A stretch of 53,383 bases of DNA from Escherichia phage FXie-2024a: the sequence record PP107930.1; one strand, written 5' to 3'. The notes under the pieces are model-generated. The model searched no databases and had not been told where the DNA came from. It worked only from the letters and a program-made list of their open reading frames with translations. This document shows positions 2,065 to 53,383 of this stretch, one piece after another. The position numbers and the translations under genes are program-made. How positions within the stretch are numbered: position 1 is the stretch's first letter; every line of letters begins with the position of its first letter.

Positions 2065-2081
2065 TCGAGTTCCTTATCATT

Positions 2082-2423: not shown

Positions 2424-2430
2424 GATTTCC

Positions 2431-6656: not shown

Positions 6657-7814
6657 TTACACCGTTATGTCAGTGAATGTGATATTAGCTTCCAGACCTT
6701 GAGCACGTTTATCAATGTCGAGTTCTATTGTTGCAGTACTTGTCGGATTTGCAGACAGGCCAATGAACAATGATTCAACCTCAATATATTGTACGGCAGA
6801 CATAATTGGTCCAAACATGTTTGACCAAACTACATCATCGCCAGGTTGTAGGCTATTCAAGTAACTTATCGCAGCAGCCTGTAATCTTTGTGCAGCATCG
6901 TTGGAACTAATGTTTGCAGAAGCCCTGCGACGGAAAGTACCTTTGACAAAGATTGGAGTACGAACTGGACGACTAAACTTGATTGGGTGTGGGTAGCCAC
7001 GAGAGTCGTTGATTGTGATTTCAATGTCACCATGAGTAGGAACACCACCAGTTTTGGCATTATAAATGCGTCGAGCAATGTCGTTACTCGTGCCACCATC
7101 AACTACAACAAAGACAGTGCCTGGAGGCTGACTGCCAATAGCAGCATCGGTATCATTATCACGAACACGAATGTAATCAATATCGAGGTCAGCGAGTGAA
7201 GCATAGATGGCTTCTGCCGTTGTGGCCGAATTGACTGCCGTTGTTTTGTCACGGCGTGCTCGGAGTTCTGGGTCAGACTCATAGTCTATTCCTGTTGTCC
7301 CAATTGTTGGGTTGGTTACAGAAGTCCAACCTGCAATAGGAGTCAGAATGTTAATGATTGTGTCGGCAGCAATGTAGTATTCACCAGGTTCAGTTGCAAC
7401 AGCAGTAACATCACCAGGCAGGGTTACATCTGTATCCAGCCTGAATTGACGACTGCCATCACTTACAAGCGAGCCAGCAGGAACCAGAGTGCCAGCAGTA
7501 CCATCGCAATACACAGTTGCTTGGGATGGCTTATTAACATATCGCTTAGTATTGGTAAGTTCGCAAACATTATCAAGTCCGACTCCTTCAACAGCGCCAG
7601 GTCGATATGCGTTGAACACTTGCTGGGCTTGTTCCCAACACGATGCAATCTCGTCTGATACTATCCCGATAACCTGCCCATCTGGGGACTCAGGACTTAC
7701 ATCAAAGTTGGCACCAAACGCTGCAATGAATTTGTTATTAAGGCTTTTAACAACTTCTGTGACGGGCTTTCTTACAAACCCGTCCTCTGTTACACCATAT
7801 TGTATTGTAGCCAT
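6657..7814 (-). CDS. Baseplate J-like protein
   Basis: 385 aa; size and position match baseplate J family of contractile-tail phages. Confidence 0.5.
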   Translation of the reverse strand: MATIQYGVTEDGFVRKPVTEVVKSLNNKFIAAFGANFDVSPESPDGQVIGIVSDEIASCWEQAQQVFNAYRPGAVEGVGLDNVCELTNTKRYVNKPSQATVYCDGTAGTLVPAGSLVSDGSRQFRLDTDVTLPGDVTAVATEPGEYYIAADTIINILTPIAGWTSVTNPTIGTTGIDYESDPELRARRDKTTAVNSATTAEAIYASLADLDIDYIRVRDNDTDAAIGSQPPGTVFVVVDGGTSNDIARRIYNAKTGGVPTHGDIEITINDSRGYPHPIKFSRPVRTPIFVKGTFRRRASANISSNDAAQRLQAAAISYLNSLQPGDDVVWSNMFGPIMSAVQYIEVESLFIGLSANPTSTATIELDIDKRAQGLEANITFTDITV

Positions 7815-8161
7815 GTTACAGTTTCCGAAATATCGCCATAGTCAGAGATGGCTACGAATGAAATATTAAGTTGGCGAGTCCTGAAATCAGCATCAATGTC
7901 AATAGACAAGAGTTGCTGAACACCCTCAGTACCACGGATAATGTTTGCAACTGCCGACTCTATGTCAGATACACGGACCTGCTTAGTGAAAATGGATTCA
8001 TACCAAGGAAGACCAATAGTGTCATCCAAAGCCCACTCACCAAATAATGTCAACAGTCTGCACTTAACCAACTGGGCCACCTGAGCGGCCCCTGATATAC
8101 GTGTTGCACCACGCCCAATAATAATGTCGTGGTTTGAATCTAAAGCTAAATTACCAGCCAT
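7790..8161 (-). CDS. Baseplate wedge protein (GPW/gp25-like)
   Basis: 123 aa; small protein immediately upstream of the J-like gene. Confidence 0.45.
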   Translation of the reverse strand: MAGNLALDSNHDIIIGRGATRISGAAQVAQLVKCRLLTLFGEWALDDTIGLPWYESIFTKQVRVSDIESAVANIIRGTEGVQQLLSIDIDADFRTRQLNISFVAISDYGDISETVTWLQYNMV

Positions 8162-8976
8162 TATTTCATCGGCCCAACATCGCCGCCTTCTGGGTTAGTG
8201 TGGGTGTGACCATCAACCTTAATACCATTAAGAGTGAGGGAGCCAGTTTGAGTCATGTTGCCGTCCATCTTGAAGTTGCCAGTGAACGTTGCAGTAGAAC
8301 CATCTTTAGTTCCAGATACAGCCATGCCACCTAAAACAGTTAAGGATTTGGTGACTGTTGTGTCGCCGTCCAATGTAATCTGCGGCGCTTTAACTGTTGC
8401 TTGCGACGTAACTTCAATTAAAATCTCCGAATCTTTCGTGATTTGAATCTTGGCAGCACCCGTAATGATTTCAATTAAACCACTTGAGTGCATTGTCAGT
8501 CGCTGGCTTCTGTCTGCGTTACGAAGTTCTGTAACCTCGCCAGCAAATCCGGCAATAACTTTTGGAATTGGTTGAGTACCAATTGTGCATACGGCAGCAT
8601 TGTGTGAGAACAATTGGCTGAATGCTGGTGAAGGTCTTGAACCAATCATGCCAGCAACATCTTTGTTCTCTGATAACCAGTGGTCGATGCCACGTTGTGA
8701 GAAGTGTACATAACATGGAGTGCCATCAGGAACAGGGTGGGTTAAACTCCAACCACCACCCTGAATAAACTGAACAGGAACTCCCTGCAATCTCTGCTTA
8801 GGTTGTAATGTATATGCTTCTGCATAACCAACAAATAAGTTTTCAATTGCAAGCTGCACTTCACACGTTTGTGTTACGGCATCGAAATTGTAAATATGCC
8901 CTGGATAACTGGTATTAATATCTGGAGCATTTTGATTGTTGTTATGACTAGCCACGTTCAAGAACACTCGCATCAA
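8161..8976 (-). CDS. Baseplate spike or hub protein (gpV-like)
   Basis: 271 aa; beta-rich C-terminus with GHTHT motif; position in baseplate cluster. Confidence 0.45.
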   Translation of the reverse strand: MMRVFLNVASHNNNQNAPDINTSYPGHIYNFDAVTQTCEVQLAIENLFVGYAEAYTLQPKQRLQGVPVQFIQGGGWSLTHPVPDGTPCYVHFSQRGIDHWLSENKDVAGMIGSRPSPAFSQLFSHNAAVCTIGTQPIPKVIAGFAGEVTELRNADRSQRLTMHSSGLIEIITGAAKIQITKDSEILIEVTSQATVKAPQITLDGDTTVTKSLTVLGGMAVSGTKDGSTATFTGNFKMDGNMTQTGSLTLNGIKVDGHTHTNPEGGDVGPMK

Positions 8977-9316
8977 TAACGAACAGTGAGAGTTGCTTGT
9001 AGCTTACAACCTCTTGTCCAGGGAATACCGTATTTGTTGCATACATGTTCGGAAGTGGCGTCGAGTATTGTTCAAGAATATCAACACCACAACGGATAGG
9101 GATTCCGAATATTTTATTCGTTGCTCCCCAAGCCAAATCAAACATGTAGCAGTTCAAATACGAGTTTAAATAAAGGGCAGACATTTTAACTGTGACGCCA
9201 GAGAACTCAAAGGATACATCCTTGGAAACATCAAACGGGACAGTCTTCACATAGCCTGTGGGAAGTAGGCTAATGATTTCATTAAATGCCTGTGCTTGTG
9301 TTTCAGCGTTTGTCAC
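8948..9316 (-). CDS. Hypothetical tail/baseplate protein
   Basis: 122 aa ORF in the tail operon; overlaps neighbours in operon style. Confidence 0.35.
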   Translation of the reverse strand: MTNAETQAQAFNEIISLLPTGYVKTVPFDVSKDVSFEFSGVTVKMSALYLNSYLNCYMFDLAWGATNKIFGIPIRCGVDILEQYSTPLPNMYATNTVFPGQEVVSYKQLSLFVIDASVLERG

Positions 9317-10215
9317 AGGAGAACACCCTTAACAGAAGATATTGGAGAATTAAGTAACTCAAGTTTGCCCTTGAGGTTGGCAAGTTGTGTCACAGAAGAT
9401 ACACCAAATACATCACCCAATCCTGGGAGAGGGACGCCACCAAGCGCACCCATACCTAAGTTTGTTGCAGTCTTGGCAAAGTCGGAATAGTCGTACATTG
9501 ATTCCATTGCCTTTCTTGCTTCCACCGCCAAGGCATCCGTGCCTATTGTTTGAAGCTCCTCCAACAGAATCTCAACTGCCAGCATTGACGAAGTGTTCTT
9601 GTCGTGCTTCGCCTTAATGGACGTCACTACACAGTTCAGGTACGGGCCGAGTATTGTGGAAATGTAGAGCTTCTTTCCCGTTGTTCGGAAATTGTTAAAC
9701 AAATCGTAGGTTGATTGAATTCGGTTGCTTGTTTCAAATGTTGAAGCAACAGCGCCAATTGCACTACCCATAACAGACAAAGCTGGGGAGTTGAAGATTG
9801 CACCAGTTGCTACAGACAAGCCTTGTAGTGAAGCAGACCACATTGAAGAGTTTTGCATGTTGACAGCAACAGCAGTCAGCTTCAAGACCCGGTTCTGTTT
9901 AATAACATGGTCACTGACAAGAAAGTTAGAGCTTACAGGGAACTTGGTTACAGTTGATGCGGCTTCGTGTTCCTCACTAACCATTGCATCAAATTTAAAA
10001 GAACTAAAACTTTCTGGAAGAGAATCGCCAACAAGCGGGATACTTTCCAGTGCACGAGATATGCCACCAGTTATGCTACCAAGGAAAGAGTCATCATCTT
10101 CCTTTTGGTCAACTTCTCCGTTGGACCACATAATAATTGAAGGGTGATGCCCATAGCTAAAGTTCTTTAGAACACCAGACGCACTCTCAATTAAGTTTGT
10201 ATCGAAAATAGACAT
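9313..10215 (-). CDS. Hypothetical tail/baseplate protein
   Basis: 300 aa ORF in the tail operon; 4-nt overlap with the downstream gene. Confidence 0.4.
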   Translation of the reverse strand: MSIFDTNLIESASGVLKNFSYGHHPSIIMWSNGEVDQKEDDDSFLGSITGGISRALESIPLVGDSLPESFSSFKFDAMVSEEHEAASTVTKFPVSSNFLVSDHVIKQNRVLKLTAVAVNMQNSSMWSASLQGLSVATGAIFNSPALSVMGSAIGAVASTFETSNRIQSTYDLFNNFRTTGKKLYISTILGPYLNCVVTSIKAKHDKNTSSMLAVEILLEELQTIGTDALAVEARKAMESMYDYSDFAKTATNLGMGALGGVPLPGLGDVFGVSSVTQLANLKGKLELLNSPISSVKGVLL

Positions 10216-11309
10216 TAGAATGACTCCATAGCCATGCCACTATTGGCATACATTTCTTGCCACGCAGCCTCTTTACCACCCATCATAGTATTGCCACCGA
10301 TTATTGCAGTGATGGAAGTCTTATAATCGATGGCGTGTGTAGAACCTTTATGAACAACTTCCATGATGAAGTATTTATCTTCAACAGCCCAACGAAATAC
10401 TGATTGGTCAGTGTTGAGAACAATGCCATCACCTTGTATTGCAGTCACACCATTTGCAAGGAGTTTTGTTCCCAGAAGTGGTGACACATCCAGAATCATA
10501 CCTGGTTGGTATGTTGGGTTCAGGAAGGTGTTAAGTGTGTAGGTACAGATTCCAGCGACAGGGTTCCCAATAACGGAGTTGGCATCCAACTTGATTGGTT
10601 CACGGTCTTTGGACATTCTGTTTACTGCATCTTTATCCCCAAACGTATCTGGGAATATTTGAATCTCACCAGTGGTTACAGAGAACAGGAGATTGTACTC
10701 TCCTAACATTGCACGAAACTCAATCAAGAATGTATCATGGAACACACGACCACGAGGCATAACTTGATTCATTACTCCATCTTCTACTCCAAACGTGGAA
10801 ATGGTATTAAAGCCATAGTCCAAACACATAGAGCGAATAGCATCCTTCAAGGTTGACCCAGGGGGAATCGCTTTCATTTGGGAGAATTTAGTTGATGCAC
10901 CATACGCTTTCGAAATACAGAATAATTGCGTAACATGTTCAGGGGGCTTTCTATAGCCAACTGCGTTAGTAATTACACCAGAGAAAATCGTAGGTAGTGA
11001 AGTATTTACTTCGATAACATTGCTGGAAGATTCTGACCTTCGGTAGTTCTTAACGCCACCAGAAGAAGCACTACGTTCATCTTCCGCATACCCTGCACGA
11101 ATTTCGATATACATACCTCCGTAGGACTTATCCTGCAAGAACTTAACTTCTTCCAAAGACAAGTTGAACAGAGTTACGTTTGCCGTATCGGCGGGCCACC
11201 CAACAGTAGAGCGAACTTCGAAATCAATTCGATGTGATTTGAATATCGTTTGCACACTTGGGTCATCTTTACGAGAAACAATTATCTCAACTCTGCGCAT
11301 CCACGGCAT
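10215..11309 (-). CDS. Tail protein (hub or late-control-type)
   Basis: 364 aa ORF immediately downstream of the tape measure gene. Confidence 0.4.
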   Translation of the reverse strand: MPWMRRVEIIVSRKDDPSVQTIFKSHRIDFEVRSTVGWPADTANVTLFNLSLEEVKFLQDKSYGGMYIEIRAGYAEDERSASSGGVKNYRRSESSSNVIEVNTSLPTIFSGVITNAVGYRKPPEHVTQLFCISKAYGASTKFSQMKAIPPGSTLKDAIRSMCLDYGFNTISTFGVEDGVMNQVMPRGRVFHDTFLIEFRAMLGEYNLLFSVTTGEIQIFPDTFGDKDAVNRMSKDREPIKLDANSVIGNPVAGICTYTLNTFLNPTYQPGMILDVSPLLGTKLLANGVTAIQGDGIVLNTDQSVFRWAVEDKYFIMEVVHKGSTHAIDYKTSITAIIGGNTMMGGKEAAWQEMYANSGMAMESF

Positions 11310-11382
11310 TGCGATATACCTATTGAAATTAATACACGTTCAACTAATGTAAAAGGAAAGCTGGGGATTTCTCCCCAACTCC

Positions 11383-15744: not shown

Positions 15745-16200
15745 TTAAACGCCAATTTCAGGATAAGAACCAGTCTTAATCTGAAGACGTTCTACAAAGA
15801 TAGCCCACACGTTAGACGTGAAGCTAACGCCACGCTGGATAGCGGGCTGTTGCAGAATTGCGCCGTTAACACCGTTAACAAGAACATCACCCATCTTGTC
15901 AACAATCTGAATCTGGAGCGGAGTCCAAAGAGATTTGTTGCCAGATAAGCCAGTTGCTTGAGTGAGCTGAGCACGGTTGTACAGAATCTCGTTCCAGTCT
16001 GCGGTTTGCAGAAGAGGGAACGTGATAGTACCAGACAAGTCAGCCGTGGTAGCCACAGCCAACTTACCATATGCATCAATCACTGGCAGGTGTTGAGGTG
16101 CGTTACGACGAGCAGTGATGATGGCATTACCAGAAGTAAAACCATCTACACGAGCACCGTCGATAATGAGGTCGGTATTATAGAAAGAATATTGTTTCAC
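15745..16200 (-). CDS. Tail tube protein
   Basis: 151 aa ORF immediately downstream of the sheath-like gene. Confidence 0.5.
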   Translation of the reverse strand: MKQYSFYNTDLIIDGARVDGFTSGNAIITARRNAPQHLPVIDAYGKLAVATTADLSGTITFPLLQTADWNEILYNRAQLTQATGLSGNKSLWTPLQIQIVDKMGDVLVNGVNGAILQQPAIQRGVSFTSNVWAIFVERLQIKTGSYPEIGV

Positions 16201-16211
16201 TTATCGCACCC

Positions 16212-17660
16212 TTACTGAACGAAGTTGCCGGAGATAACTGCACCCTGCAATGCGCCAGAGCCAATTGCAATGAAGGAAGTACCTTCCCAGATTCGAGCAC
16301 CTTTCTGCGACTGCATCAGTGCCAAATCGGTAGACAATACTTTGTAACCATCTGCGTAGAAGGTTCCTTCGTTGTCATAACCTGGGGCGATTAAGCCATT
16401 GGTTACAGCCAGTTCCAGTGCCAGAGTTACTTGCTGGTTGACCAGAGCAACACCAGTGTCCGTCCAAGGAATCTTGGTAGTGGAGGTGTAGAACAGATTG
16501 AACACGTTCGCGCGAATCTTAGCAGTCAGCCAAGACACACCCTGAACAGTATCGAACCAAGTACCGTCAGCCATTTTGCCGTTGTAGAACATAGTGTTCC
16601 CACCAACGTTGATGAATGCGTTACCATTTACACGTTCGAGAGCAGCAAGCTGGTTCGGCGACAGGTCAGCAGTCTTGATAGCCGGACCTTGTTTGAATGC
16701 CAGAACAAGCGCAGAGTTTGCAACGTTAAAGTTGACAGTCGATGCACGACCCAGGATAGAGATTTCTGGATACTCGTCACCATTATCAGATGCATCATAA
16801 ACCAGCAGAGTACGCTGGAGGTTCTGTTCTTTGGCACGCTTGAAGCTGGAGTCTGCGCCAACAACAAGAATGTTCGGGTCATTATCGGCCCAACCAAACA
16901 CCTTCTCGTTTGCTTCTGCCCACTTAGCCACAGTCATCTGGTTATCGCCTGCAGCACTGCCGCGATATTTGCGGTCGATAGCTACGAAGAAGAAGTCGAA
17001 AGTTGAGTCCAGAATTGCAGACAGGTCAGAGCCGATAGACTTCTCGTCAATACCCTGAACAAATACAGGATTGGAAGCCGAATCCAGCTTGAATGCAGAA
17101 GCAGCAGAACCATACACACCACCGATTGAAGAGGTGCTTCCAGTGCTCATCGCAGAAATCTTGAACGTACCAGTGGTCTGGGACATAGTTGCTTCAATAC
17201 CAGCAGTTGCAAATGCAGCATTGACCATTGAGGCAACAGCATTAAAGTCGTTGGCAGAAGAGAAGTTGATAGGTGCAGTGCTTAAGTCTTTGCCATCAAT
17301 GTTGATAGAGATGACACCAGAAGTCAGTGCCTTAATCGTATCAAGGGTTGCAGCAGAGGATGCAGTCACAGTACCGTGAGTTGCAGGAACCGAAGTTTCA
17401 TTGGTAATTGCACCTACCAGGAAATACTTCGGAGTGGGTTTTTGAGAATACCACGCCAAAGCTGCATTATAAATTTCACCAGACGGGAAATCCGCAGACA
17501 CCGCAGCCATGCTCGTATATTGACGAACAGGAACTACTTCAGCAGCAGTCGGTGAAAACTCCTTCGAAAGAAAGAGTAGAGGACCAAAACCTTCCACAGC
17601 AACAGCGTTCGGACTAACCGCGATGTTAACTTGGATGATATCGGAAATTGGAATTGCCAT
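16212..17660 (-). CDS. Tail sheath protein
   Basis: 482 aa; size and position before the tube gene match a contractile sheath. Confidence 0.55.
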   Translation of the reverse strand: MAIPISDIIQVNIAVSPNAVAVEGFGPLLFLSKEFSPTAAEVVPVRQYTSMAAVSADFPSGEIYNAALAWYSQKPTPKYFLVGAITNETSVPATHGTVTASSAATLDTIKALTSGVISINIDGKDLSTAPINFSSANDFNAVASMVNAAFATAGIEATMSQTTGTFKISAMSTGSTSSIGGVYGSAASAFKLDSASNPVFVQGIDEKSIGSDLSAILDSTFDFFFVAIDRKYRGSAAGDNQMTVAKWAEANEKVFGWADNDPNILVVGADSSFKRAKEQNLQRTLLVYDASDNGDEYPEISILGRASTVNFNVANSALVLAFKQGPAIKTADLSPNQLAALERVNGNAFINVGGNTMFYNGKMADGTWFDTVQGVSWLTAKIRANVFNLFYTSTTKIPWTDTGVALVNQQVTLALELAVTNGLIAPGYDNEGTFYADGYKVLSTDLALMQSQKGARIWEGTSFIAIGSGALQGAVISGNFVQ

Positions 17661-31229: not shown

Positions 31230-31502
31230 TTAATCGACTTGCAACATTGCAAGACGGAAGTCATATCCAACTAATGCTTCGGACAGCTCTTCAATTGAAG
31301 TTGTTGCCGAGATTAAAGTTTGGAGGTTTTTAAATGTCTCATCGTTAAATGCTTGAGACTGTGTGTCGGACGAATAGAATACTTTGTCCTTAATCTTTTC
31401 AAGGAACGCCATTACAGCGTCCTTTGCGAGAACTTCGGAATCGGTAGCAAACATATGGTGCTCTGATTCCTGCACATCAAAAATAGAATATACAGTTTGC
31501 AT
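31230..31502 (-). CDS. Hypothetical protein
   Basis: 90 aa ORF directly downstream of the DNA polymerase gene. Confidence 0.4.
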   Translation of the reverse strand: MQTVYSIFDVQESEHHMFATDSEVLAKDAVMAFLEKIKDKVFYSSDTQSQAFNDETFKNLQTLISATTSIEELSEALVGYDFRLAMLQVD

Positions 31503-33436
31503 TAGTGAATCTCTGCGTAGTTATCGCCAAATTGTACATCACATGCACAATCACGATTGAGTTTAAGTTCTTTGTTGGTCCGGTCCATTGCTTCATTAAG
31601 CAAGTCCGTCCACAAATCACGGAAACCTTTCTTAACTTGGAGAATCAATTCATCATGGAATTGTCCAGACAGAAGCGGGTCACAGCCCCAACGTTCATTA
31701 CAAATTGCGATAATGTTGTTACACCAAATATCAAACACATATGCACCAGTACCCTGACACAATGTGGAGAAGCGGTCTTTCTCTGTACGCAATGAATACC
31801 AGAATTTGTTTACTGGATTCTGTTGCCACATCTGACCATCAACTGTGATAACTTTAGTGTTAGCAGCAATTTCTTTGATGGACCAGTTCAAGTCCCAATA
31901 TGCTTTATGCAGTCGTGCAGCAGTGGCCTGGTCACAGTCAGCAGAACGGGCAACTGTTGGAATACCAGCACCATACTGACAAGCATAGTTTGTGGTCTTA
32001 AACATTGGACGTTGCTTACATTTCTGTATGCCGTCTTTGTGGTCCTGAGATTCTTTCTCTGTGATAAATCCACCGATTACGCCAATTGCAAGGTGGGCAT
32101 CATAGTCTGGTGCCAACTGCTTCTTAACATATTCAGGGTCATACATCCATTGGAAGTGGTGTTTACAACGGTCTTCCAAGGAACACAAGTCAGAACCTAA
32201 CTGTTCGTAGTCTTCGCGAAACGCTTCCAACATTGAACGCAGTTCTTCACCGCCAAATACACGAATAGAAGGGAGGTTAACAAGTTCGCGATGTTTAAGG
32301 CGTAAAGTATTGGTAAGGCCACCGCATCGTGCAGTAAGGTATCCGTCTTCATCGACGTCGCGAAGAAAACCATTAACAACAGAGAGACGGTGTTTATACA
32401 CGCCCATCCCAATAAGATGTTGAATACCAGATTCGGGGTTTCTTTCTGCCAACTTATGGAGGCTTGGACATATTTCAGGATTGCCATCTTCATCCTTAAC
32501 AGTGATTTGAGGAATCTGGCGAGTCTCACCTGTTTCCTTGTTGCGGTCGAACTTAAATGTTTCTGGCACCCAGCCTAAGCTGAACAACCAATCTTTAATC
32601 TGTACGTGAGAACCGGCGTTTGGTTCTTTATAACCCTTCAAGACTTTGATAGCTAAGTCTGGGTCTTTCCAGTCTAAACCGTTTGCATCACAAACAGCTT
32701 TCCACTTAATACCAGTGGAAGACAATTGTCCGTTTAGCTTGTGGCATTTAGCTGGACGGGTCTTGATTACATATTCAGGAATACGTGGCATTGATGCTTC
32801 CAATGCGTCCGTCTTCTCTTTAATCATTGGTTCCAGCTTGGCCTTAAATGCCAATGCCTTCTCGATGTTCAACTTCCAACGAGTACGTTGCTGAATAACC
32901 TGTTGGCGAGCTTTCGTCATCAAGTATTCAATGAAGCGTTTGACTTCAGATGGAGTCTTATAAATCTTGAGTAACTGGATGTACTGTTGTTCCCACAATT
33001 TGTGCTGAATCTTACAGTCTTCCAGTACACGATGGTTGTATTCTTCTTGTGTTTGGTTTTCCCAATCATCAATGACTGGTTTAGGCACACCAAACTCTTC
33101 ACCATAACCTTCAAGTCCATGCTTAACACGACGAGGTTGGAGATACCAACTGATAAATAGCGTATCAATCAGAGTACATTTTGAAACGTCATAACCAAGG
33201 AACTTCAATGCTTCAAAGTCAAAGGTTGCGCCGTTGTGCATGATTAGTGTTGGACCTGTGTCCAGAAAGTCTTGAATGGATTTTCGTTGCGTCCACTCAA
33301 TTACAGTTTCTTCACGAGTTTGAACATCAATGTATCCAATGTTGTGAAGACGTGGTGCAGCCTGTTTCTTCATCTGCTCCAACAAACCAGTTGTTTCAAT
33401 GTCACTGGCATACATATTTTCCCAAGGATACAACAC
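31502..33436 (-). CDS. DNA polymerase, family A, with 3'-5' exonuclease domain
   Basis: 644 aa; exo motif DIETTGL; motif B-like KTTNYACQYGAG; motif C-like QFHDELILQV. Confidence 0.75.
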   Translation of the reverse strand: MLYPWENMYASDIETTGLLEQMKKQAAPRLHNIGYIDVQTREETVIEWTQRKSIQDFLDTGPTLIMHNGATFDFEALKFLGYDVSKCTLIDTLFISWYLQPRRVKHGLEGYGEEFGVPKPVIDDWENQTQEEYNHRVLEDCKIQHKLWEQQYIQLLKIYKTPSEVKRFIEYLMTKARQQVIQQRTRWKLNIEKALAFKAKLEPMIKEKTDALEASMPRIPEYVIKTRPAKCHKLNGQLSSTGIKWKAVCDANGLDWKDPDLAIKVLKGYKEPNAGSHVQIKDWLFSLGWVPETFKFDRNKETGETRQIPQITVKDEDGNPEICPSLHKLAERNPESGIQHLIGMGVYKHRLSVVNGFLRDVDEDGYLTARCGGLTNTLRLKHRELVNLPSIRVFGGEELRSMLEAFREDYEQLGSDLCSLEDRCKHHFQWMYDPEYVKKQLAPDYDAHLAIGVIGGFITEKESQDHKDGIQKCKQRPMFKTTNYACQYGAGIPTVARSADCDQATAARLHKAYWDLNWSIKEIAANTKVITVDGQMWQQNPVNKFWYSLRTEKDRFSTLCQGTGAYVFDIWCNNIIAICNERWGCDPLLSGQFHDELILQVKKGFRDLWTDLLNEAMDRTNKELKLNRDCACDVQFGDNYAEIH

Positions 33437-33502
33437 AGTATGGCTCCAATGGATTTAAGGAGGGCCGCGCTGGTGGGCGAACCATGCAGCGCAGCAGCTC
33501 TG

Positions 33503-35266
33503 TTATTGGTGTGGACCGTTCTTCTTAGTAAGTTGAACAATCTCTTTAGTTTCGAACAGCGAGTCTTCCCAAGAACGTTGAATGATTCGACCTGAGTCTG
33601 TGTCATAGTACGTCTTGAAGCCTTCTGTTTTACCACTCTTACGAGCTTTGATGGAACGAATAATAGAACAGTTTGGGTCTACTGCCTGACTATTACGTTC
33701 AAAGCCAAACATACCATGAGAATACTTAGCAGCAGCACGAGAGCCAGTAAAGTCTGACTTCTTGATACGTCCACCATCTTCATGAGGTCGCTGACCTTTT
33801 GCCACAGGGTTAAGGTGCGACAGAATATTAACGTGGAACTGGTACTGGTCTGCTAACTTTGTAATGTCTGCATACAGCTTACCTAAGAAGTCGTTCTTCT
33901 CTGAGGCAGAAATCCCTTCCGATAAGTAGGTTAAGTTATCAAGAACAAACATATCAATGTCTGGACCAATCTGACGAAGAATCGTCTTCAACCCATCCCA
34001 AGTTTCATAAGGGTCTTCTCCAGCTTGCTTGCGGTCCCAAATCTCCATGTTACGAAGCATCTTCGCAGCAGTTTGACGGAACTTCACTTCATCGTATCGA
34101 GGGTCTTCACGAGTAAACGCAGGTTCCCAATACGGCAAGTTGTCATTAAGGCCAGCCATACGGCGTAATGTTTCCGCAGGAGTTTCTTCCATGTATGCAG
34201 TAAACACTCCCCAATCATGCTGAATAATATTGTGATGCACAATCTGACGAGAAAGTGTAGTCTTACCACCACCTTCTGCACCACCGATTGAGATAACTTC
34301 GGCACGACGTTGACCAAACATTAAGTCGGTTAACTTAGTCCAGGGATAGTCCACACCCTGTTCAACTTCGTCATCAAGCTCTTCCATAAGAAGTTCTTTA
34401 TCGACAAGAGCTGTGGGCAGAGGTCGGGCAGCACGGAATACAACAGCAGATTGAGTAGCTTTAAGCAAGCCACGCTTCAGACAATCGTTGGCATCATTAG
34501 CTGGAAGAGTTGCAATCATTGCACCAGGCAACAATCGGCACGCTTCCTTAGCAGCTTTACGCCCAGGTTCATCATCATCAAATACGATAACAACCTGCTC
34601 CCAACGTTGCTTAATTTCTTCTGCAACTGGTGACAAACATTTGTGTACGGAATCGCTTCCATCACTCAAACTAATTACAGCAAAATCCAAATCTTCATAT
34701 GCACCACCACGGTTCATGGTCTTCAAGATTTGACGCAATGCGATACAGTCTTCTTCACCTTCTGTGATGAACAGTGTCTTACCGCCAATTGCTTTTGCGG
34801 CCATCCAGTTGTAAGGGTCGTTACCCTGGGTGTCGCCAACCGACCACATAACTTTCTTGTTCAGAAGTTTAATCTTCCAACGAACAAGTTTACCATTTTT
34901 GGTGTAGCCATGTGCCAGAGCATTTGGAGTCTTTCCATCATACTCTGAATACAGAAGTCGGACACCAGCAGCTTTCCAGAAATCTGGTTCAATACTGCGA
35001 TGGTCTAAATCAAACGGAGGACAAGCAGTGACTTCATCAATTTCTTCCTGAATTTCTTCTGGAGTTTTGACTTTAATCTCTGGAATGTTCTCCGGATTAT
35101 TGCCATAAGGATTTGGTACTAGAACGCCACATGCAAAGCAGTAACCAGAAAAGTTCTTATTACCAGCTTCATCGACATTCAACCAAACCTGTAAAGACTT
35201 GCCAGATGTGGATTTACAGTCTGGTACATCGTGCTTAATCTTAGCCACACATTGCTTGACGTTCAT
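33503..35266 (-). CDS. Primase-helicase (T7 gp4-like)
   Basis: 587 aa; N-terminal Cys-rich zinc-binding region; helicase Walker A GGAEGGGKTT. Confidence 0.75.
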   Translation of the reverse strand: MNVKQCVAKIKHDVPDCKSTSGKSLQVWLNVDEAGNKNFSGYCFACGVLVPNPYGNNPENIPEIKVKTPEEIQEEIDEVTACPPFDLDHRSIEPDFWKAAGVRLLYSEYDGKTPNALAHGYTKNGKLVRWKIKLLNKKVMWSVGDTQGNDPYNWMAAKAIGGKTLFITEGEEDCIALRQILKTMNRGGAYEDLDFAVISLSDGSDSVHKCLSPVAEEIKQRWEQVVIVFDDDEPGRKAAKEACRLLPGAMIATLPANDANDCLKRGLLKATQSAVVFRAARPLPTALVDKELLMEELDDEVEQGVDYPWTKLTDLMFGQRRAEVISIGGAEGGGKTTLSRQIVHHNIIQHDWGVFTAYMEETPAETLRRMAGLNDNLPYWEPAFTREDPRYDEVKFRQTAAKMLRNMEIWDRKQAGEDPYETWDGLKTILRQIGPDIDMFVLDNLTYLSEGISASEKNDFLGKLYADITKLADQYQFHVNILSHLNPVAKGQRPHEDGGRIKKSDFTGSRAAAKYSHGMFGFERNSQAVDPNCSIIRSIKARKSGKTEGFKTYYDTDSGRIIQRSWEDSLFETKEIVQLTKKNGPHQ

Positions 35267-39116: not shown

Positions 39117-39134
39117 TTTCACATCCAATTAATG
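39117..39134 (-). promoter_or_regulatory. Copy of recurrent 18-bp motif, about 76 nt upstream of the 38703..39041 gene
   Basis: Plus strand TTCACATCCAATTAATGT. Confidence 0.35.
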
Positions 39135-39164
39135 TGTCAGGACTGCTCTGATTTAACAAACAAC

Positions 39165-40666: not shown

Positions 40667-41310
40667 AGGAACTCTCCAATTTTCGATTCGGTGTTTGTGA
40701 CTTCTCTTCTCATCTTTTGGCCTATGAAACAGGCCACAGAGTAGCGCAGGAAGGCCGAAAATCGGACCACTGCCTACCGTTTGTGTCAATTCTGGATAAC
40801 TGCATTGGCGAAGGGTTACTCCCGTTAGGGTGCGACCCGCGCATCATAACTGCATAGCAGTCTGGCAAGCTGCGGAGGTCACAGAGGCTTTGCAACCCTT
40901 CCCAATACATTCACCCAACCTACCCGCTTTGGTATAGCTGGCGGCGCGGTTTTGTGCGGATTATGCCACTCTAAGCCCTGTTTGCCCGACTTCCTCGGAG
41001 CACCAGCAGCTTGTGGCACAAACCTATTTTCGAATGACTAACATAAGCATGAGGCACAACCCTCTAATTATTCAGCCCTAACAGCTTGCTTATTCAGTAC
41101 CAATTCATCCCAATACATCGCTATAACAAGTGAACAGCTTTCTGCGAAGAAGTATTCCGGCCCTTTGGCCTATGTTAAAAGTTAAATGTATGTGATGGAA
41201 ACATTCCATCGAAAAGAACTTTGTAGAACGAATCGAACGTTCTCACACGCCCTGGTACCAGACGGACTACCTAGTTACAAAGTTCTTATCTGATGTTGTT
41301 TCAATTCCAA

Positions 41311-41487
41311 CTAATGTCGAATGTCTTTCTTGCAAACAGGACAAGTGATAAATCTATATGCGAAATATCCTCGGTCATTCTTCCCTGTGTATATCTTTAA
41401 GTCTGAGAATTCATAAGACACAACAGAAGCACATAACCGACATTGGCGTGTGAAGGTTACTGTATCTTTTTCCAGAACTTTAATCAT
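41311..41487 (-). CDS. Zinc-ribbon protein
   Basis: 58 aa from MIKVLEKD; CRLC...CPVC; ribosome-binding GGAG lies inside the upstream 18-bp motif copy. Confidence 0.45.
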   Translation of the reverse strand: MIKVLEKDTVTFTRQCRLCASVVSYEFSDLKIYTGKNDRGYFAYRFITCPVCKKDIRH

Positions 41488-41713
41488 TTCATCTCCAATT
41501 AATGTTTCAGAATTATTCCAATATTCCAAATAAAAAGAATAATAAGAATAAATTAAATAAATGAAGAAAGTGCTTGACACCCATTTGGCGATAAGTGTAT
41601 AATGCCTTTCTTCCCTAAGAGGTCAGAATCAAATCCCACTAATGTTTCAGAATTACGCCGAAGGCCAATGCGAGCACAAAACCCGCTTGGCACTTCGACG
41701 GAACAGCTTGGAA

Positions 41714-45729: not shown

Positions 45730-45747
45730 TTCAAATCCAACTAATGT
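45730..45747 (-). promoter_or_regulatory. Copy of recurrent 18-bp motif, about 75 nt upstream of the SSB-like gene
   Basis: Plus strand TTCAAATCCAACTAATGT. Confidence 0.35.
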
Positions 45748-46772: not shown

Positions 46773-46802
46773 AAATGCTCCAAGTTGATTAATAATATTC
46801 AG

Positions 46803-46829
46803 CAACCACTCTCATTACAAAAGTGGTTG
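46803..46829 (-). terminator. Hairpin downstream of paralog A
   Basis: CAACCACT / AGTGGTTG stem 6 nt after the stop at 46836; same element repeated at 47101..47127. Confidence 0.35.
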
Positions 46830-46835
46830 AGGAAA

Positions 46836-47072
46836 TTATTTAACTTCTTCCCACACAAACAGGAATCCAACTACAGGCACATTTTCACCAATATTCCAAT
46901 ACGGACGGCCACGCCCATTGCTTCGCATTCGATTCCCACTATTGGTTATAGTAATGTATGGCTGTAATTCACCATTTACTTCAAGGTCAATCAAATCACC
47001 CTCAAGTTCATCTCCAACCTGAACTGATTTAGAACCTATTGGTGCTTTAATACAAACAAACTTCTTTGCCAT
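46836..47072 (-). CDS. Small paralogous protein A (78 aa)
   Basis: Shares PYWNIGE...VP...W.EEVK C-terminus with the 83-aa neighbour. Confidence 0.5.
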   Translation of the reverse strand: MAKKFVCIKAPIGSKSVQVGDELEGDLIDLEVNGELQPYITITNSGNRMRSNGRGRPYWNIGENVPVVGFLFVWEEVK

Positions 47073-47100
47073 TTTTGATACTCCGATTAATAATATTCAG

Positions 47101-47127
47101 CAACCACTCTCGCTATAAGAATGGTTG
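47101..47127 (-). terminator. Hairpin downstream of paralog B
   Basis: CAACCACT / ATGGTTG stem with the same flanks as 46803..46829. Confidence 0.35.
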
Positions 47128-47133
47128 AGGAAA

Positions 47134-47385
47134 TTATTTAACTTCTTCCCAGGTCCAAATACTACCTTTTAATGGGACTTTTTCGCCAATGTTCCAATAG
47201 GGTCTGCCATTGACAGCCATTCGGTTTCCAACATCCGAAATAATTATTCGAGTGTCGATTCCGTGTTTTCGCTGTATGTTGATAAGTTCTCCTTCAATCA
47301 CATCTCCAACTTTTGGAGTATGTTCGGATGAAGAGGTTGATTTCACACATTTAAACTTTGTCATTGCAATAAACCTTGTTCGCAA
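47134..47385 (-). CDS. Small paralogous protein B (83 aa)
   Basis: Paralog of 46836..47072 (KFKCV, VGNRMAVNGRPYWNIGEKVP, WTWEEVK). Confidence 0.5.
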   Translation of the reverse strand: MRTRFIAMTKFKCVKSTSSSEHTPKVGDVIEGELINIQRKHGIDTRIIISDVGNRMAVNGRPYWNIGEKVPLKGSIWTWEEVK

Positions 47386-49722: not shown

Positions 49723-49779
49723 GTGACACAACAAGTGCCGAAAACTACAATGATTAGCTTGGAGACATAATCTCTCTAA

Positions 49780-50650
49780 AATCTGTCACAGAATTTACAG
49801 AGATTTGGTCTTATTCACATGCAACTAATGATAAATGAACATGCTTAATTGCAACTAATTCATCTGCCAAATAGACGAATTTTGTCACAATCAAACATGC
49901 ATCATTAATTATAGGTTTACACCTATCTTGGAATGTATTTGGCACATCAAGAAGTGGCGCAATAGGTACGGAAAACCGACCATGTACAGCATAATAAAAC
50001 CAATTAAATAAAGGGTTTTATCCCAATATTGTCACAATATTTACATGCGATGATAAAGCCTTCGCTTGGCTGGAAGCCAGTATTCATGCGGGTTGCAAGA
50101 ATATTGGGTCATTGCTGATACAGCTATTACATGCGAAATTGGCACAAATACTGTTACAAAATTAACATGCCAGATTGGCAGACGATTGTATCTTCGAGGT
50201 GATTAGTCCTCTAACAATTCTGCCACATTCCAACATGCCAATTTGTAGCAATATTTACATGCCATACTGCGACGCAATTGTCACAATATTTGTTGCTCAA
50301 AATCGGGGCGGCTTCTGCGTGCAAACGAGAGGCTTAGTCCGACTTCTTCTCTTCTTTCGATTTCTGATTGAAAGAAAGAAGCATGTCCAAAAGTTCCAAT
50401 ATTACCAAAGTTATCTCCCGGCTTGTGGGTGGGCCTTTATAATAGGAGATGGAGCAATATTGTCGCAATTGAACATGCCATAGGTGAAGTACAAGTTTCG
50501 GATAGATATTCCTACTCTGTGTCATGGTTGCTGGAACTATAGGTGGCCTACCTAGGGAGTTCAATGATTGCCACATCATTACAACACTGTAACTCAAAGC
50601 TGACATGCTGAATGTTTCTAGAATGATTCAACATTACATGCGGAATATTT
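49780..50650. repeat. Iteron-like repeat cluster (candidate origin or promoter array)
   Basis: ORF-free ~0.9 kb with about 10 to 12 copies of a 18-19 bp motif near TTGTCACAATATTTACATGC (examples 49882..49900, 50029..50048, 50151..50170, 50221..50238, 50243..50262, 50460..50478). Confidence 0.55.
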
Positions 50651-50721
50651 CTCCGTATTCTTTTACTTCACATCCAACTAATGTAAGAGTTGTGTAACGA
50701 TATTGAAGACAGCTCTTAAAT

Positions 50722-50752
50722 TAATTGAAACAAGAAAAGGGAGCCGAAGCTC
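50722..50752 (-). terminator. Intrinsic terminator after the RNA polymerase operon
   Basis: Minus strand reads GGGAGCTTCGGCTCCC followed by TTTTCTTGTTTC, just after the 66-aa ORF stop at 50760. Confidence 0.5.
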
Positions 50753-50759
50753 CCAAGTA

Positions 50760-50960
50760 TCAGAACGGTATCTCTGTATCAAAGTACCCAGAATTGTGTA
50801 AGAATGAGTGCAATAATACATGCGATTCTTGCTTATATTCTGCTAACAATTCTAAGAAGTCTTTAGTCTCCTCCACTGTAGGACGAGATAAGTTGCTCAT
50901 GTCACAGGTGTGATGAGGATTGAAACAGTTTTCGATTTGATTGATTTGTTGAATGTTCAT
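50760..50960 (-). CDS. Hypothetical small protein
   Basis: 66 aa ORF immediately downstream of the RNA polymerase gene. Confidence 0.4.
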   Translation of the reverse strand: MNIQQINQIENCFNPHHTCDMSNLSRPTVEETKDFLELLAEYKQESHVLLHSFLHNSGYFDTEIPF

Positions 50961-51009
50961 TATAAGTCTCCAAGTTTGTGGTCATCCTTGACCCAATTAG
51001 TGTCACTGA

Positions 51010-52950
51010 TTATTGACAGAAGTAGTAAGCGTGTTCGCTCATCAGAAGCTCTTCAGTTACGATGTTCTCGTGATACATCTGAATGCCGCCAAGTTGCTTA
51101 GACAGATTCTCGAATTGATTGTTGGTTACAAAGATTTCAACATATGCTGCACGAATAACTTCCATCATACGTGGAGCATCAGCTAAGCAGCAACGGAAAC
51201 AATCATGGATTGAAGTGAAGCCACGAAGACCAGCTTCTTTAGCTTTAACTGCAACAGTACGAGCAACAAGTGCATCAATACCTTGAATGTAGTTAACAAC
51301 GAAGGTGCGTTTAAATTCTTCCTTAGTTGGATTGGATTCACGAATGGTCCAAGGCTTGTTCTCCTGAATCTGGCCAAAGATAACACGAGTTTGGCTGTCA
51401 ACACGGATGCTGAATGCCTCACAGATTTCACGAGATGGGAAGCAAGGCTTCATTACAACCTGACCATCAGTGTGACGATATGTGATGTACTCTTTGTTGA
51501 GTTCAACACAACGGTTGTATGCAGCATCAGCAGCTTTCTCGATGAACATGTTAATCTTAGCACCCAATGCGTTATGGATTGCTTCTACACACAGTTCAGC
51601 AAATGCCTCAGCTTTCTCCATAGGAATCTGGAGAGATGCAGTCATGTATGCAATGAAGTCAGAAGAACCAGTCAATGCAGCTTTACCACCACCGTATTGA
51701 ATAGCCATATACGGAGTTTTGATAAACTTACGACCAGCTTTCGGATTCAAGAATTCATCCATGATTTCAGGAGATGGTTTCATTGAAGAACGGTCGAGCA
51801 GCTTCAACAGTTCACGAAGACTCAACTGGTATGGGTCAGATGCTTTAGTCTCAGAATCAACCAGACCTGTTGCACGAGCCATTTCCATGTTACCAGCAAT
51901 GAATGCCAGATATTGAGTACCAGAACATTTAGCATCTAAACCAAAGCCTACACGAGAATCGCACTCACCTGTAGTCTCAAACTTGAACCAATCCAGAGCC
52001 AGACGAACATAAGTGAATGGCTTAGAAGGACGTTCAGATTTGTCCATGTTCATCATGCGAGCAAGTGAACCAGCTGGATTTGATGCAACATAAGTTAATC
52101 GCTTAGCAGAAGCCCATTCACCACCAGAAATATCTTCCAGCTCTGCCATGAACATGTTGTATGCAATGGTAGTAGAACCATCTTCGTTAAACTTCTTAAC
52201 GATGTTCTCAACATTGTGAGAATACAAGCAACGAGCAAAGTCAGATGATTGTGGGTTAGGACCAGCACATGCTACATGATACAGACGACCACGGTTATCA
52301 GCAAAGTAGTCAGAGTACAGTGTATCCTGAGTCATCATTGCTACAGCATTGTTCCAAACATGGAGTTCAGTCTGGATTGCTTCTGGCATCTGCAAGCCAC
52401 CATAAGTACGCTGCTCAATCATGGACTGGATGATGCGAACCATCTCAGTCTCCACATGGTACTCAGTATCTTGCAGGAATTCGATTGCAGCTTTCAGAGT
52501 CTTGGATGGCTTAACTTTGCCACCTTTAACGAAAGGCTTGCGACGAGATTCAGTGGTAACACGCTCAGTGAATGGCACTGAGGTATCTTTGGTTGTAACC
52601 AGCTCAACCCATGCATCAGTTTGTTGGAACGACTTATCTTCGTTCATGGTGATGAAGCCAAAGTGTTTAGCCAGACCAATCAGGTTGATAGCTGGGTCAA
52701 CATAGTGCATTGCTTTCAAATCGTTGTTATAACGGTTGGCATCAGCAATAGAAGCAGAAGCCAGTTCAACCATCGAGATGGCAGGTACAACATCGTCACG
52801 AGTGAAAGACGTCATCATCTTGAAGATGGCTAACGCAGCAATAGCACAAGTCTGAGGCTGCATATAGTTCTGTTTCTCTTTGGCACGGTATACCAGAGCA
52901 GTGATAGCAGGAACAACGGATTTGATAGTTTGAGTAGAGATAGTAGTCAT
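51010..52950 (-). CDS. Single-subunit DNA-dependent RNA polymerase, compact form
   Basis: 646 aa from MTTIST (GGAG ribosome-binding site). T7-RNAP-like motifs: DNRGRLY, motif A GLDAKCSG, motif B KTPYMAIQYGGGK, motif C SIHDCF. N-terminal domain much shorter than T7 RNAP. Confidence 0.8.
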   Translation of the reverse strand: MTTISTQTIKSVVPAITALVYRAKEKQNYMQPQTCAIAALAIFKMMTSFTRDDVVPAISMVELASASIADANRYNNDLKAMHYVDPAINLIGLAKHFGFITMNEDKSFQQTDAWVELVTTKDTSVPFTERVTTESRRKPFVKGGKVKPSKTLKAAIEFLQDTEYHVETEMVRIIQSMIEQRTYGGLQMPEAIQTELHVWNNAVAMMTQDTLYSDYFADNRGRLYHVACAGPNPQSSDFARCLYSHNVENIVKKFNEDGSTTIAYNMFMAELEDISGGEWASAKRLTYVASNPAGSLARMMNMDKSERPSKPFTYVRLALDWFKFETTGECDSRVGFGLDAKCSGTQYLAFIAGNMEMARATGLVDSETKASDPYQLSLRELLKLLDRSSMKPSPEIMDEFLNPKAGRKFIKTPYMAIQYGGGKAALTGSSDFIAYMTASLQIPMEKAEAFAELCVEAIHNALGAKINMFIEKAADAAYNRCVELNKEYITYRHTDGQVVMKPCFPSREICEAFSIRVDSQTRVIFGQIQENKPWTIRESNPTKEEFKRTFVVNYIQGIDALVARTVAVKAKEAGLRGFTSIHDCFRCCLADAPRMMEVIRAAYVEIFVTNNQFENLSKQLGGIQMYHENIVTEELLMSEHAYYFCQ

Positions 52951-53006
52951 TTGTAAGTCTCCAAGATTGTGTATGATTTGAATGAAACGGATTATAATAG
53001 CGTAGC

Positions 53007-53024
53007 CATTACACAATTCACGTC
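53007..53024 (-). promoter_or_regulatory. Copy of recurrent 18-bp motif, about 60 nt upstream of the RNA polymerase ATG
   Basis: Plus strand TTCACGTCCAACTAATAT; family consensus TTCACATCCAACTAATGT. Confidence 0.35.
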
Positions 53025-53181
53025 CAACTAATATCACAAACCTGTGCCATTGTTACAACAGCACGGAGACTTTGACCTTGACTCATAAGCGAAGCGCCTA
53101 ACTTGGTGTTGATTGAAAGCCGATAGGCTGTAGGAAAAAGTTGGGGTAGGGACCGTATTTTAAGTCCGATAGGACGTTGGG

Positions 53182-53256: not shown

Positions 53257-53383
53257 TTATAATATTGCCACAATTCTAGTCTCGTTAATATTGAACAAAT
53301 TCGAGTCTCCAATATCGTAACAATTCTAGTCTCTTTAATTCTGTAGCAATATTCGAAATAAAAAAAAAATTATAAAAAAAAAA
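53257..53383. repeat. Right copy of 127-bp terminal direct repeat
   Basis: Identical to 1..127; the window ends exactly at the repeat end. Confidence 0.6.

What the first reader, a model, noticed from the sequence alone, without database searches (positions are those of the whole stretch)
51010..52950. Compact T7-like RNA polymerase as the first gene of a contractile-tail phage genome
The polymerase has the catalytic motifs of single-subunit RNA polymerases but is about 240 residues shorter than T7 RNAP, mostly at the N-terminus where T7 carries promoter-recognition elements. It sits directly after the right terminal repeat and has its own terminator. The structural module encodes sheath, tube and baseplate proteins, an uncommon pairing with a T7-style transcription and replication module.
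Basis: partly seen in the sequence, partly recalled or inferred. Interest (0 to 1): 0.65.

Follow-up and report, generated by a model that had tools for sequence, protein, structure and literature searches.

The report
Known chasevirus compact T7-like RNA polymerase
The gene is a real, compact T7-type RNA polymerase in a contractile-tail E. coli phage, but this pairing is the long-known hallmark of the family Chaseviridae (first described in 2008), so the finding is correct in substance and ordinary.

The parts
51010..52950 (-). Single-subunit (T7-family) RNA polymerase gene, 646 aa, 72.7 kDa
52959..52962 (-). GGAG ribosome-binding site, 8 nt upstream of the ATG at 52950
   Evidence: Sequence. 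ST32 Table 2 lists the same SD/start, TGGAGACttacaaATG.
53017..53034 (-). Promoter-like site ATATTAGTTGGACGTGAA, 84 nt upstream of the RNAP start codon
   Evidence: An ATTAGTTG site sits upstream of the RNAP gene in most relatives (alignment). It is not among the nine promoters annotated in GJ1.
50760..50960 (-). Small ORF (66 aa, unknown function) between the RNAP gene and the terminator; likely co-transcribed with it
   Evidence: phrog_20790 at 1.3e-17. Homologous to gp2 of Mangalitsa and JL1.
50725..50754 (-). Intrinsic-terminator-like hairpin GGGAGC-UUCG-GCUCCC plus U-run, ending the RNAP/gp2 unit
   Evidence: Fold -12.1 kcal/mol, z -3.16.
50667..50684 (-). Candidate phage-RNAP promoter ACATTAGTTGGATGTGAA (equals GJ1 'putative phage promoter 1')
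49814..49831 (-). Candidate phage-RNAP promoter TCATTAGTTGCATGTGAA (equals GJ1 'putative phage promoter 2')
45730..45747 (-). Candidate phage-RNAP promoter upstream of the SSB gene (equals GJ1 promoter 3)
41300..41645 (-). Three candidate promoters (41645-41628, 41505-41488, 41317-41300)
   Evidence: GJ1 promoters 4 and 5 lie in the syntenic region.
39118..39135 (-). Candidate phage-RNAP promoter (equals GJ1 promoter 7)
31260..31277 (-). Candidate phage-RNAP promoter downstream of the DNA polymerase gene (equals GJ1 promoter 8)
11333..11350 (-). Candidate phage-RNAP promoter directly after a terminator-like hairpin and 41 nt before the baseplate hub gene (equals GJ1 promoter 9)
50341..53168 (.). 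Inferred physical direct terminal repeat (about 2.8 kb), collapsed to one copy in this assembly. It contains the RNAP gene, gp2, the terminator and two promoter-like sites.
   Evidence: Mapping of the exact 2995-bp DTR of JL1 and of the Mangalitsa PhageTerm DTR. ICTV profile: about 3 kb. Inferred by homology, not measured for this phage.
53257..53383 (.). Exact 127-nt copy of window 1-127; an overlap from a circular assembly, not a biological terminal repeat
   Evidence: Present as a single copy in ST32 and JL1.
53259..53288 (-). Sigma-70-like promoter TTAACG-18-TATTAT, homologous to the 'putative host sigma70 promoter' annotated in GJ1. It lies outside the inferred DTR.
15745..17660 (-). Tail sheath (16212-17660) and tail tube (15745-16200) genes
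   Evidence: phrog_205 tail sheath at 5e-99 and phrog_280. Mangalitsa annotation.
6657..11309 (-). Baseplate module (hub 10215-11309, Baseplate_J wedge 6657-7814)
31502..35266 (-). T7-like replication genes: primase-helicase (33503-35266) and family A DNA polymerase (31502-33436)
   Evidence: phrog_239 at 2e-143 and phrog_17 at 5e-97. Toprim+DnaB_C and DNA_pol_A.

Best explanation
The gene encodes the single-subunit, T7-family DNA-dependent RNA polymerase that every member of the phage family Chaseviridae carries as its first gene. The window is a Carltongylesvirus-like E. coli myophage.

Shown here: the protein has the complete palm, fingers and thumb catalytic core, a specificity-loop-like beta-hairpin region (residues about 500-540), a cut-down N-terminal domain of about 150 aa (about 317 aa in T7) and a shortened thumb. 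In size and in what has been trimmed it resembles the 'minimal' N4 RNAPII, but it is a single polypeptide and is closer to T7 RNAP.

Inferred mechanism: after an initial round of expression, probably by the host RNA polymerase, the enzyme transcribes the unidirectional genome from about ten sequence-specific double-stranded promoters. Their consensus is ACATTAGTTGGATGTGAA, with an invariant core ATTAGTTG. They lie almost only in intergenic DNA on the coding strand, often just after terminator hairpins, and one lies in front of the RNAP gene itself.

Inferred by homology: the gene lies inside the roughly 2.8-kb direct terminal repeat, so packaged genomes would carry two copies.
For: Identity and family. 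The gene is 95% identical in nucleotides and 97-98% in amino acids to the RNAP of ST32, PO103-1 and Mangalitsa. Taxonomy lines of those records place them in the Chaseviridae. The ICTV profile and other papers describe this RNAP as the family trait.

Fold and motifs..

Promoter candidates. CATTAGTTGGAT with at most 1 mismatch gives 8 hits where 0.25 are expected, and 7 of the 8 are on the coding strand. The 18-mer with at most 4 mismatches gives 10 hits on the coding strand and 0 on the other, and the sites are syntenic in Mangalitsa. In 14 relatives (201,690 nt), ATTAGTTG occurs 65 times on the coding strand and 7 times on the other, against about 5 expected. By the Mangalitsa annotation, 9 of 11 sites are intergenic. 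The sites are the same sequences annotated as 'putative phage promoter 1-9' in the GJ1 record. Eight consensus promoters were proposed for PP101. The specificity-loop region is conserved in the genomes that have the motif and differs in the clade that lacks it.

Terminal repeat..
Against: No transcription start sites or enzyme assays exist for any chasevirus RNAP in the literature I could search. The ICTV profile states that the promoters 'have not yet been identified', so the promoter role of the motif remains a prediction.

The source of the first RNAP transcripts is unclear. The sigma-70-like promoter homologous to the one annotated in GJ1 (53288-53259) lies outside the inferred left genome end. 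The scan found no sigma-70-like site in the 215 nt between that end and the RNAP start.

The repeat borders are transferred from relatives and were not measured on this phage.

Confidence: 0.85

Rival explanations
1. The enzyme works like N4 RNAPII. It would be a minimal polymerase unable to open duplex promoters by itself, needing single-stranded or pre-melted templates plus a phage cofactor. The conserved motif would then be something else.
Confidence: 0.08
2. The ACATTAGTTGGATGTGAA element is not the RNAP promoter. It would be a binding site for another phage regulator or an RNA-level signal, and the polymerase would use different, still unrecognised start sites.
For: No experimental start sites exist, and the ICTV profile says the promoters are unidentified. 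Two sites fall inside annotated small ORFs. Few strong copies precede the head and tail genes.
Against: The element's strand specificity, its intergenic placement just after terminators, its copy number of about ten, its length, and its loss together with changes in the specificity loop all fit T7-type promoters. There is no fixed -10 element downstream that would suggest a host promoter (my reading of the sequences) and no hairpin. Two earlier groups read the element the same way.
Confidence: 0.12
3. One reading: a previously unrecognised hybrid phage in which a truncated RNAP, sitting directly after a short terminal repeat and with its own terminator, marks an unusual new transcription strategy.
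For: The gene, its shortness and the myovirus genes are all real.
Against: The phage is about 95% identical to many sequenced phages of a named family whose defining trait is this pairing. The 127-nt repeat is an assembly overlap. The terminator is not adjacent to the RNAP gene.
Confidence: 0.02
4. The polymerase is packaged in the virion and injected, as in N4. That would explain a phage-type promoter in front of its own gene and the lack of a clear host promoter inside the left end.
For: A promoter-like site is conserved upstream of the RNAP gene. No sigma-70-like site was found in the first 215 nt of the inferred genome.
Against: The virion proteins named in the text and figure legends of the 4HA13 mass-spectrometry study do not include the RNAP. 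I did not read the full supplementary list. The protein lacks the large flanking domains of N4 vRNAP and is a weaker structural match to it.
Confidence: 0.03

Closest known systems
RNA polymerases of Chaseviridae phages (phiEcoM-GJ1 gp01, ST32 ORF1, Mangalitsa gp01, PO103-1)
   Same: They are 92-98% identical in protein sequence, the same length (646-648 aa), and occupy the same position as first gene. They share the same downstream small ORF and terminator, the same promoter-like motif, the same myovirus structural module and the same T7-like replication genes.
   Different: Only sequence divergence at strain or species level (about 5% at the nucleotide level in this gene) and small indels in the flanking non-coding DNA.
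T7 RNA polymerase (Autographiviridae gene 1; PDB 1CEZ, 3E2E)
   Different: It is 237 aa shorter. The N-terminal domain is about 150 aa instead of about 317, the thumb is about 39 aa shorter, and about 34 aa are missing from the fingers and C-terminus. T7 H784 is replaced by an invariant Q556. The candidate promoter is unrelated in sequence to the T7 promoter. The gene lies inside a roughly 3-kb terminal repeat and is preceded by a phage-type promoter-like site. The virion is a myovirus.
Bacteriophage N4 RNAPII (gp15+gp16; PDB 6DT7)
   Same: It is a minimal member of the T7 family of similar total size (673 aa) with a truncated N-terminal domain and thumb. There is detectable similarity in sequence and structure.
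   Different: N4 RNAPII is a heterodimer and recognises only a minimal AT-rich -7 to +2 promoter. From my own knowledge, not checked here, it also needs N4 gp2 and single-stranded template. The window's enzyme is one chain, is closer to T7, and is associated with a long conserved sequence motif.
N4 virion RNA polymerase (mini-vRNAP; PDB 3Q0A)
   Different: There is no sequence-profile hit at E<=1. vRNAP is a roughly 3500-aa virion protein that uses DNA hairpin promoters. The candidate promoters here form no hairpins.

Membership tests
T7-like single-subunit RNA polymerases (Pfam PF00940) | Sequence match above the curated threshold | tested here: met
   65.2 bits against a cutoff of 22, E 6.7e-18. 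Profile against T7 RNAP gives 2e-17.
T7-like single-subunit RNA polymerases (Pfam PF00940) | Catalytic motifs: DxxGR, motif A Asp, motif B Lys/Tyr, motif C His-Asp | tested here: met
   D218-R222, D339, K411/Y419 and H582-D583. All are invariant in 57 homologues.
T7-like single-subunit RNA polymerases (Pfam PF00940) | Right-hand polymerase fold superimposable on T7 RNAP | tested here: met
T7-like single-subunit RNA polymerases (Pfam PF00940) | Specificity loop (beta-hairpin in the fingers that reads promoter bases) | tested here: inconclusive
   Beta-strands at 506-537 align with T7 739-770, and R515 aligns with T7 R746. Contacts with bases cannot be tested with these tools.
T7-like single-subunit RNA polymerases (Pfam PF00940) | Full T7-type N-terminal promoter-binding domain (AT-rich recognition loop, intercalating hairpin) | tested here: not met
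   Only about 150 aa precede the thumb, against about 317 in T7. A weak alignment puts a loop 11 aa shorter where T7 has the AT-rich loop (probability 2.5%). One beta-hairpin at 100-110 may or may not be the intercalating hairpin.
T7-like single-subunit RNA polymerases (Pfam PF00940) | Rifampicin-resistant, promoter-specific transcription by one polypeptide | not testable with these tools
   Needs enzyme assays or infection experiments.
Chaseviridae (Cleopatravirinae, Carltongylesvirus) | High nucleotide identity to type members across the genome | tested here: met
   The RNAP gene is 95.6% identical to PO103-1 and 95.4% to ST32. The genome is collinear with Mangalitsa in blocks of 76-98% identity, with the large blocks at about 88-94%.
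Chaseviridae (Cleopatravirinae, Carltongylesvirus) | 52-56 kb genome, unidirectional genes, myovirus structural genes plus a single-subunit RNAP and its own DNA polymerase and primase-helicase | tested here: met
   53,256 bp without the overlap. All large ORFs are on one strand. Gene content is shown. Family description.
Chaseviridae (Cleopatravirinae, Carltongylesvirus) | Long (about 3 kb) direct terminal repeat | tested here: inconclusive
   The assembly holds one copy. Homologous borders map to 50341 and 53163-53168. Raw reads would be needed to confirm.
N4 RNAPII-type minimal polymerase | Two-subunit enzyme split between the thumb/DxxGR part and the palm/fingers part | tested here: not met
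   There is a single uninterrupted 646-aa ORF.
N4 vRNAP-type polymerase | Hairpin-form promoters and a giant virion-packaged protein | tested here: not met
   The ten motif sites share no hairpin, with z-scores from -2.1 to +1.5. The protein is 646 aa. There is no profile hit to vRNAP.

The most novel reading that the evidence does not exclude
The compact N-terminal domain (residues about 1-120: a helical bundle plus one beta-hairpin) may be a winged-helix-like DNA-binding module that replaced T7's larger promoter-binding domain. Working with the specificity loop, it would read a short promoter whose 8-bp core ATTAGTTG has stayed fixed while the polymerase diverged to about 40% identity. A conserved copy in front of the RNAP gene, inside the terminal repeat, would give positive autoregulation from two gene copies. 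If so, this would be among the smallest single-chain, promoter-specific RNAPs in the T7 family, and a useful orthogonal expression tool.
Probability: 0.25. Interest if true: 0.45.

Novelty: already known. Interest (0 to 1): 0.15.

Why it matters
For this window it matters little. The gene, its unusual host virion type and even its putative promoters were described with phiEcoM-GJ1 in 2008 and now define a recognised phage family.

What remains open, and would interest people who work on phage transcription or on in-vitro transcription enzymes, is biochemical. No chasevirus RNAP has been characterised in the literature I could search. The promoters are still only predicted. How a 646-aa enzyme with half of T7's N-terminal domain recognises and melts a promoter is unknown.

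The analysis here gives a concrete consensus (ACATTAGTTGGATGTGAA) that is conserved across the subfamily. It also shows that the gene sits inside the terminal repeat and has a promoter-like site of its own. Both points can be tested directly.

Tried and rejected

(2) I looked for a motif equivalent to ATTAGTTG in the more distant clade (L030-L035, 36-39% RNAP identity). The candidate k-mers were not convincing.

(3) I looked for a host sigma-70 promoter between the inferred left genome end and the RNAP start. The scan found none. A perfect TATAAT there is not conserved in relatives.

(4) I tested whether the motif could be a sigma-70 or sigma-54 promoter or a hairpin promoter. There is no fixed -10 element at the right distance. 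A TGGCAC-like string upstream of the RNAP gene is not conserved. There are no hairpins.

(5) Rfam and tRNA scans of the window found nothing.

(6) The phiEcoM-GJ1 paper itself is not held, so I used its GenBank annotation instead.

(7) I searched four recent papers on new phage RNAPs for any chasevirus enzyme and found none. A full-text search for the motif string returned nothing relevant.

Full report
What is there. The minus strand carries an ORF at 51010-53037. Its biologically sensible start is the ATG at 52950, which is preceded by GGAG at 52959-52962. This gives a 646-aa, 72.7-kDa protein. ST32 lists the same start and Shine-Dalgarno sequence. The longer 705-aa start annotated in Mangalitsa and JL1 is not supported by the more distant homologues, which align from residues 1-10. 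All large ORFs of the window are on the minus strand, so this is the first gene in the direction of transcription.

The catalytic residues are all present and are invariant in the family: DxxGR D218-R222, motif A D339, motif B K411/Y419, motif C H582-D583.

Where the missing residues are. The offsets to T7 are 203 at DxxGR, 198 at motif A, 220 at motif B, 229 at motif C and 237 at the C-terminus. With residue 153 matching T7 317, about 164 of the missing residues come from the N-terminal domain. About 39 come from the thumb and about 34 from the fingers and C-terminus.

A beta-hairpin region at about 500-540 aligns with the T7 specificity loop.

What phage this is. The RNAP gene is 95-96% identical in nucleotides to Escherichia phages PO103-1, Bp10, ST32, flopper and Mangalitsa. 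It matches 56 phage records at the DNA level and 93 at the protein level over at least 80% of its length, nearly all annotated 'RNA polymerase'. These phages belong to the Chaseviridae, subfamily Cleopatravirinae, genus Carltongylesvirus. The window is collinear with Mangalitsa along its length.

Tail sheath, tube, baseplate hub and Baseplate_J genes are present. So are a T7 gp4-like primase-helicase, a family A DNA polymerase, a 5'-3' exonuclease and a ligase.

[quoted passage not shown] The 'uncommon pairing' is therefore the known hallmark of a named family.

Compact polymerases of this kind are also not rare. A search of 1.84 billion cluster representatives gave 690 hits at E<=1e-3 and 118 at E<=1e-10, many of them 600-730 aa long.

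Genome ends. The only end repeat is an exact 127-nt duplication, 1-127 = 53257-53383. ST32 and JL1 read through this sequence once, so it is the overlap of a circularised assembly.

The real ends can be inferred from relatives. The JL1 record carries an exact 2995-bp direct terminal repeat with the RNAP gene at both ends, and it maps to window 50341-53168. The PhageTerm-predicted repeat of Mangalitsa (1-3234) maps to about 50347-53163. Y2 and a PM1-like contig also hold the gene at both ends (loci L018/L019 and L016/L026). ICTV gives repeats of about 3 kb.

The RNAP gene is therefore inside the terminal repeat, not after it, and would be present twice in packaged DNA. This is inferred by homology and was not measured for this phage.

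Terminator. The 52 nt after the RNAP stop codon fold no better than shuffled sequence (z -0.75). A good intrinsic-terminator-like hairpin, GGGAGC-UUCG-GCUCCC followed by UUUUCUUGUUU at 50754-50725 (z -3.2), follows the next ORF, a conserved 66-aa protein of unknown function. The transcription unit is therefore RNAP, then the small ORF, then the terminator.

How it probably works. Looking for repeats, I found a strand-specific element with consensus ACATTAGTTGGATGTGAA. It starts at 53034, 50684, 49831, 45747, 41645, 41505, 41317, 39135, 31277 and 11350 (all minus strand). A weaker gapped copy lies at 25862, just before the terminase gene.

- The 12-mer CATTAGTTGGAT with at most 1 mismatch occurs 8 times against 0.25 expected, and 7 of the 8 are on the coding strand.
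- The 18-mer with at most 4 mismatches occurs 10 times on the coding strand and never on the other. Mangalitsa has the same sites at syntenic positions, and 9 of its 11 sites are in annotated intergenic DNA.
- Several sites sit directly after terminator-like hairpins, for example 11350 and 50684.
- In 14 relatives spanning RNAP identities from 92% down to 39%, the core ATTAGTTG occurs 65 times on the coding strand and 7 times on the other, against about 5 expected. The flanks are also conserved, giving C-ATTAGTTG-GAwGTGA.
- The core is absent from the most distant clade (36-39% identity), whose specificity-loop region also differs.
- The sites show no common hairpin. On my reading of the sequences, there is no fixed -10 element downstream.

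These are the properties of T7-type promoters.

The promoters are not new either. The GJ1 GenBank record annotates nine 'putative phage promoters' whose sequences (CGACATTAGTTGGATGTGAA, TATCATTAGTTGCATGTGAA) are this motif, at the syntenic places. Eight were proposed for PP101. None has been tested, and ICTV still lists the promoters as unidentified.

One small addition is that a copy lies 40-110 nt upstream of the RNAP gene in most relatives (window 53034). It is not annotated in GJ1. This suggests the enzyme also transcribes its own gene.

Open point. The sigma-70-like promoter that GJ1 annotates upstream of the RNAP gene corresponds to window 53288-53259. That is about 95 nt outside the inferred left genome end. 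No sigma-70-like site was found in the 215 nt between that end and the RNAP start. It is therefore unclear how the first RNAP transcripts are made from the entering left end. The virion proteins named in the text and legends of the 4HA13 proteomics study do not include the RNAP, so injection of the enzyme is unlikely but not excluded.

Comparison with known systems. The closest relatives are simply the other chasevirus RNAPs, and membership of that family is met on every feature testable here. Against T7 RNAP, the core is the same, but the N-terminal promoter-binding domain is halved and the thumb is shortened. In that respect it parallels N4 RNAPII, which is described as one of the smallest family members, with truncated N-terminal and thumb domains. 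Unlike N4 RNAPII, it is a single chain, it is closer to T7, and it is associated with a long conserved promoter-like sequence. It does not resemble N4 virion RNAP in sequence, size or promoter type.

Verdict. The interpretation as a compact T7-like RNAP in a myophage is right but has been known since 2008. Interest is low. The unresolved biochemistry of this compact enzyme is the only part that might repay further work.

Noticed in passing
window 1-127 and 53257-53383: The two ends of the window are an exact 127-nt duplicate. ST32 and JL1 carry this sequence only once, so it looks like the overlap left by a circularised assembly rather than a biological repeat.
   Followed up: yes
window 49740-50700 (minus strand): The roughly 1-kb non-coding stretch that spans the inner border of the inferred terminal repeat holds 11 of the 22 coding-strand copies of GCATGT in the whole window, against 1 on the other strand. 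They often occur as GCATGTAAATATTG. Relatives show a related repeated word, TGTCAATATTG, in the same place. The function is unknown; early host promoters, an origin or a packaging signal are possibilities.
   Followed up: partly
window 53261-53350 (minus strand): Two 40-nt direct repeats (78% identical) lie just outside the inferred left genome end. One carries the sigma-70-like promoter annotated in GJ1. In packaged DNA they would precede only the right-hand copy of the RNAP gene.
   Followed up: partly
window about 53100-53175 (minus strand): Two similar 12-nt palindromes, GTCCTATCGGAC and AGCCTATCGGCT, occur here. The JL1 and Mangalitsa genome ends map inside or next to the first one. The block is conserved as far as Faunus and L013, so it may be a terminase cutting signal.
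   Followed up: no
locus L036 (Hafnia alvei GCA_002206365.2, NJFP02000002.1 2778075-2800021); also L037 and L025: A 52%-identical RNAP gene lies in a bacterial chromosome next to a tyrosine integrase, a holin and a hydrolase, flanked by host genes, with ArdA and other chasevirus-like genes downstream. This looks like an integrated chasevirus-like element, although the family is described as strictly lytic. Similar chromosomal hits occur in Pseudomonas brenneri, Lelliottia wanjuensis and P. laurylsulfatiphila.
   Followed up: partly
window 46787-46853 and 47085-47151: Two copies of a 67-nt repeat (93% identical, 298 nt apart). Each contains an 8-bp stem hairpin (CAACCACT...AGTGGTTG on the coding strand) with no U-run after it.
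   Followed up: no
window 53017-53034 (minus strand): A promoter-like site sits in front of the RNAP gene itself and is conserved in most relatives, but it is absent from the nine promoters annotated in GJ1. It is followed by a conserved block, GGCTACGC...TAATCCGTTTCA, that would lie in the 5' leader if the site is a promoter.
   Followed up: partly
Mangalitsa NC_048799.1 211-2325 and JL1 OR791690.1 666-2780: These records annotate the RNAP as 705 aa. The extra N-terminal stretch is not shared by other homologues. In Mangalitsa it includes a roughly 170-nt insertion that looks like a separate small ORF, so these starts are probably over-extended.
   Followed up: partly
window 11383-15102 (minus strand): The 1239-aa tape-measure-like virion protein gives PHROG hits to endolysin and lytic tail-fibre families in its C-terminal part, and RecE-like exonuclease hits at residues about 450-645.
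   Followed up: no
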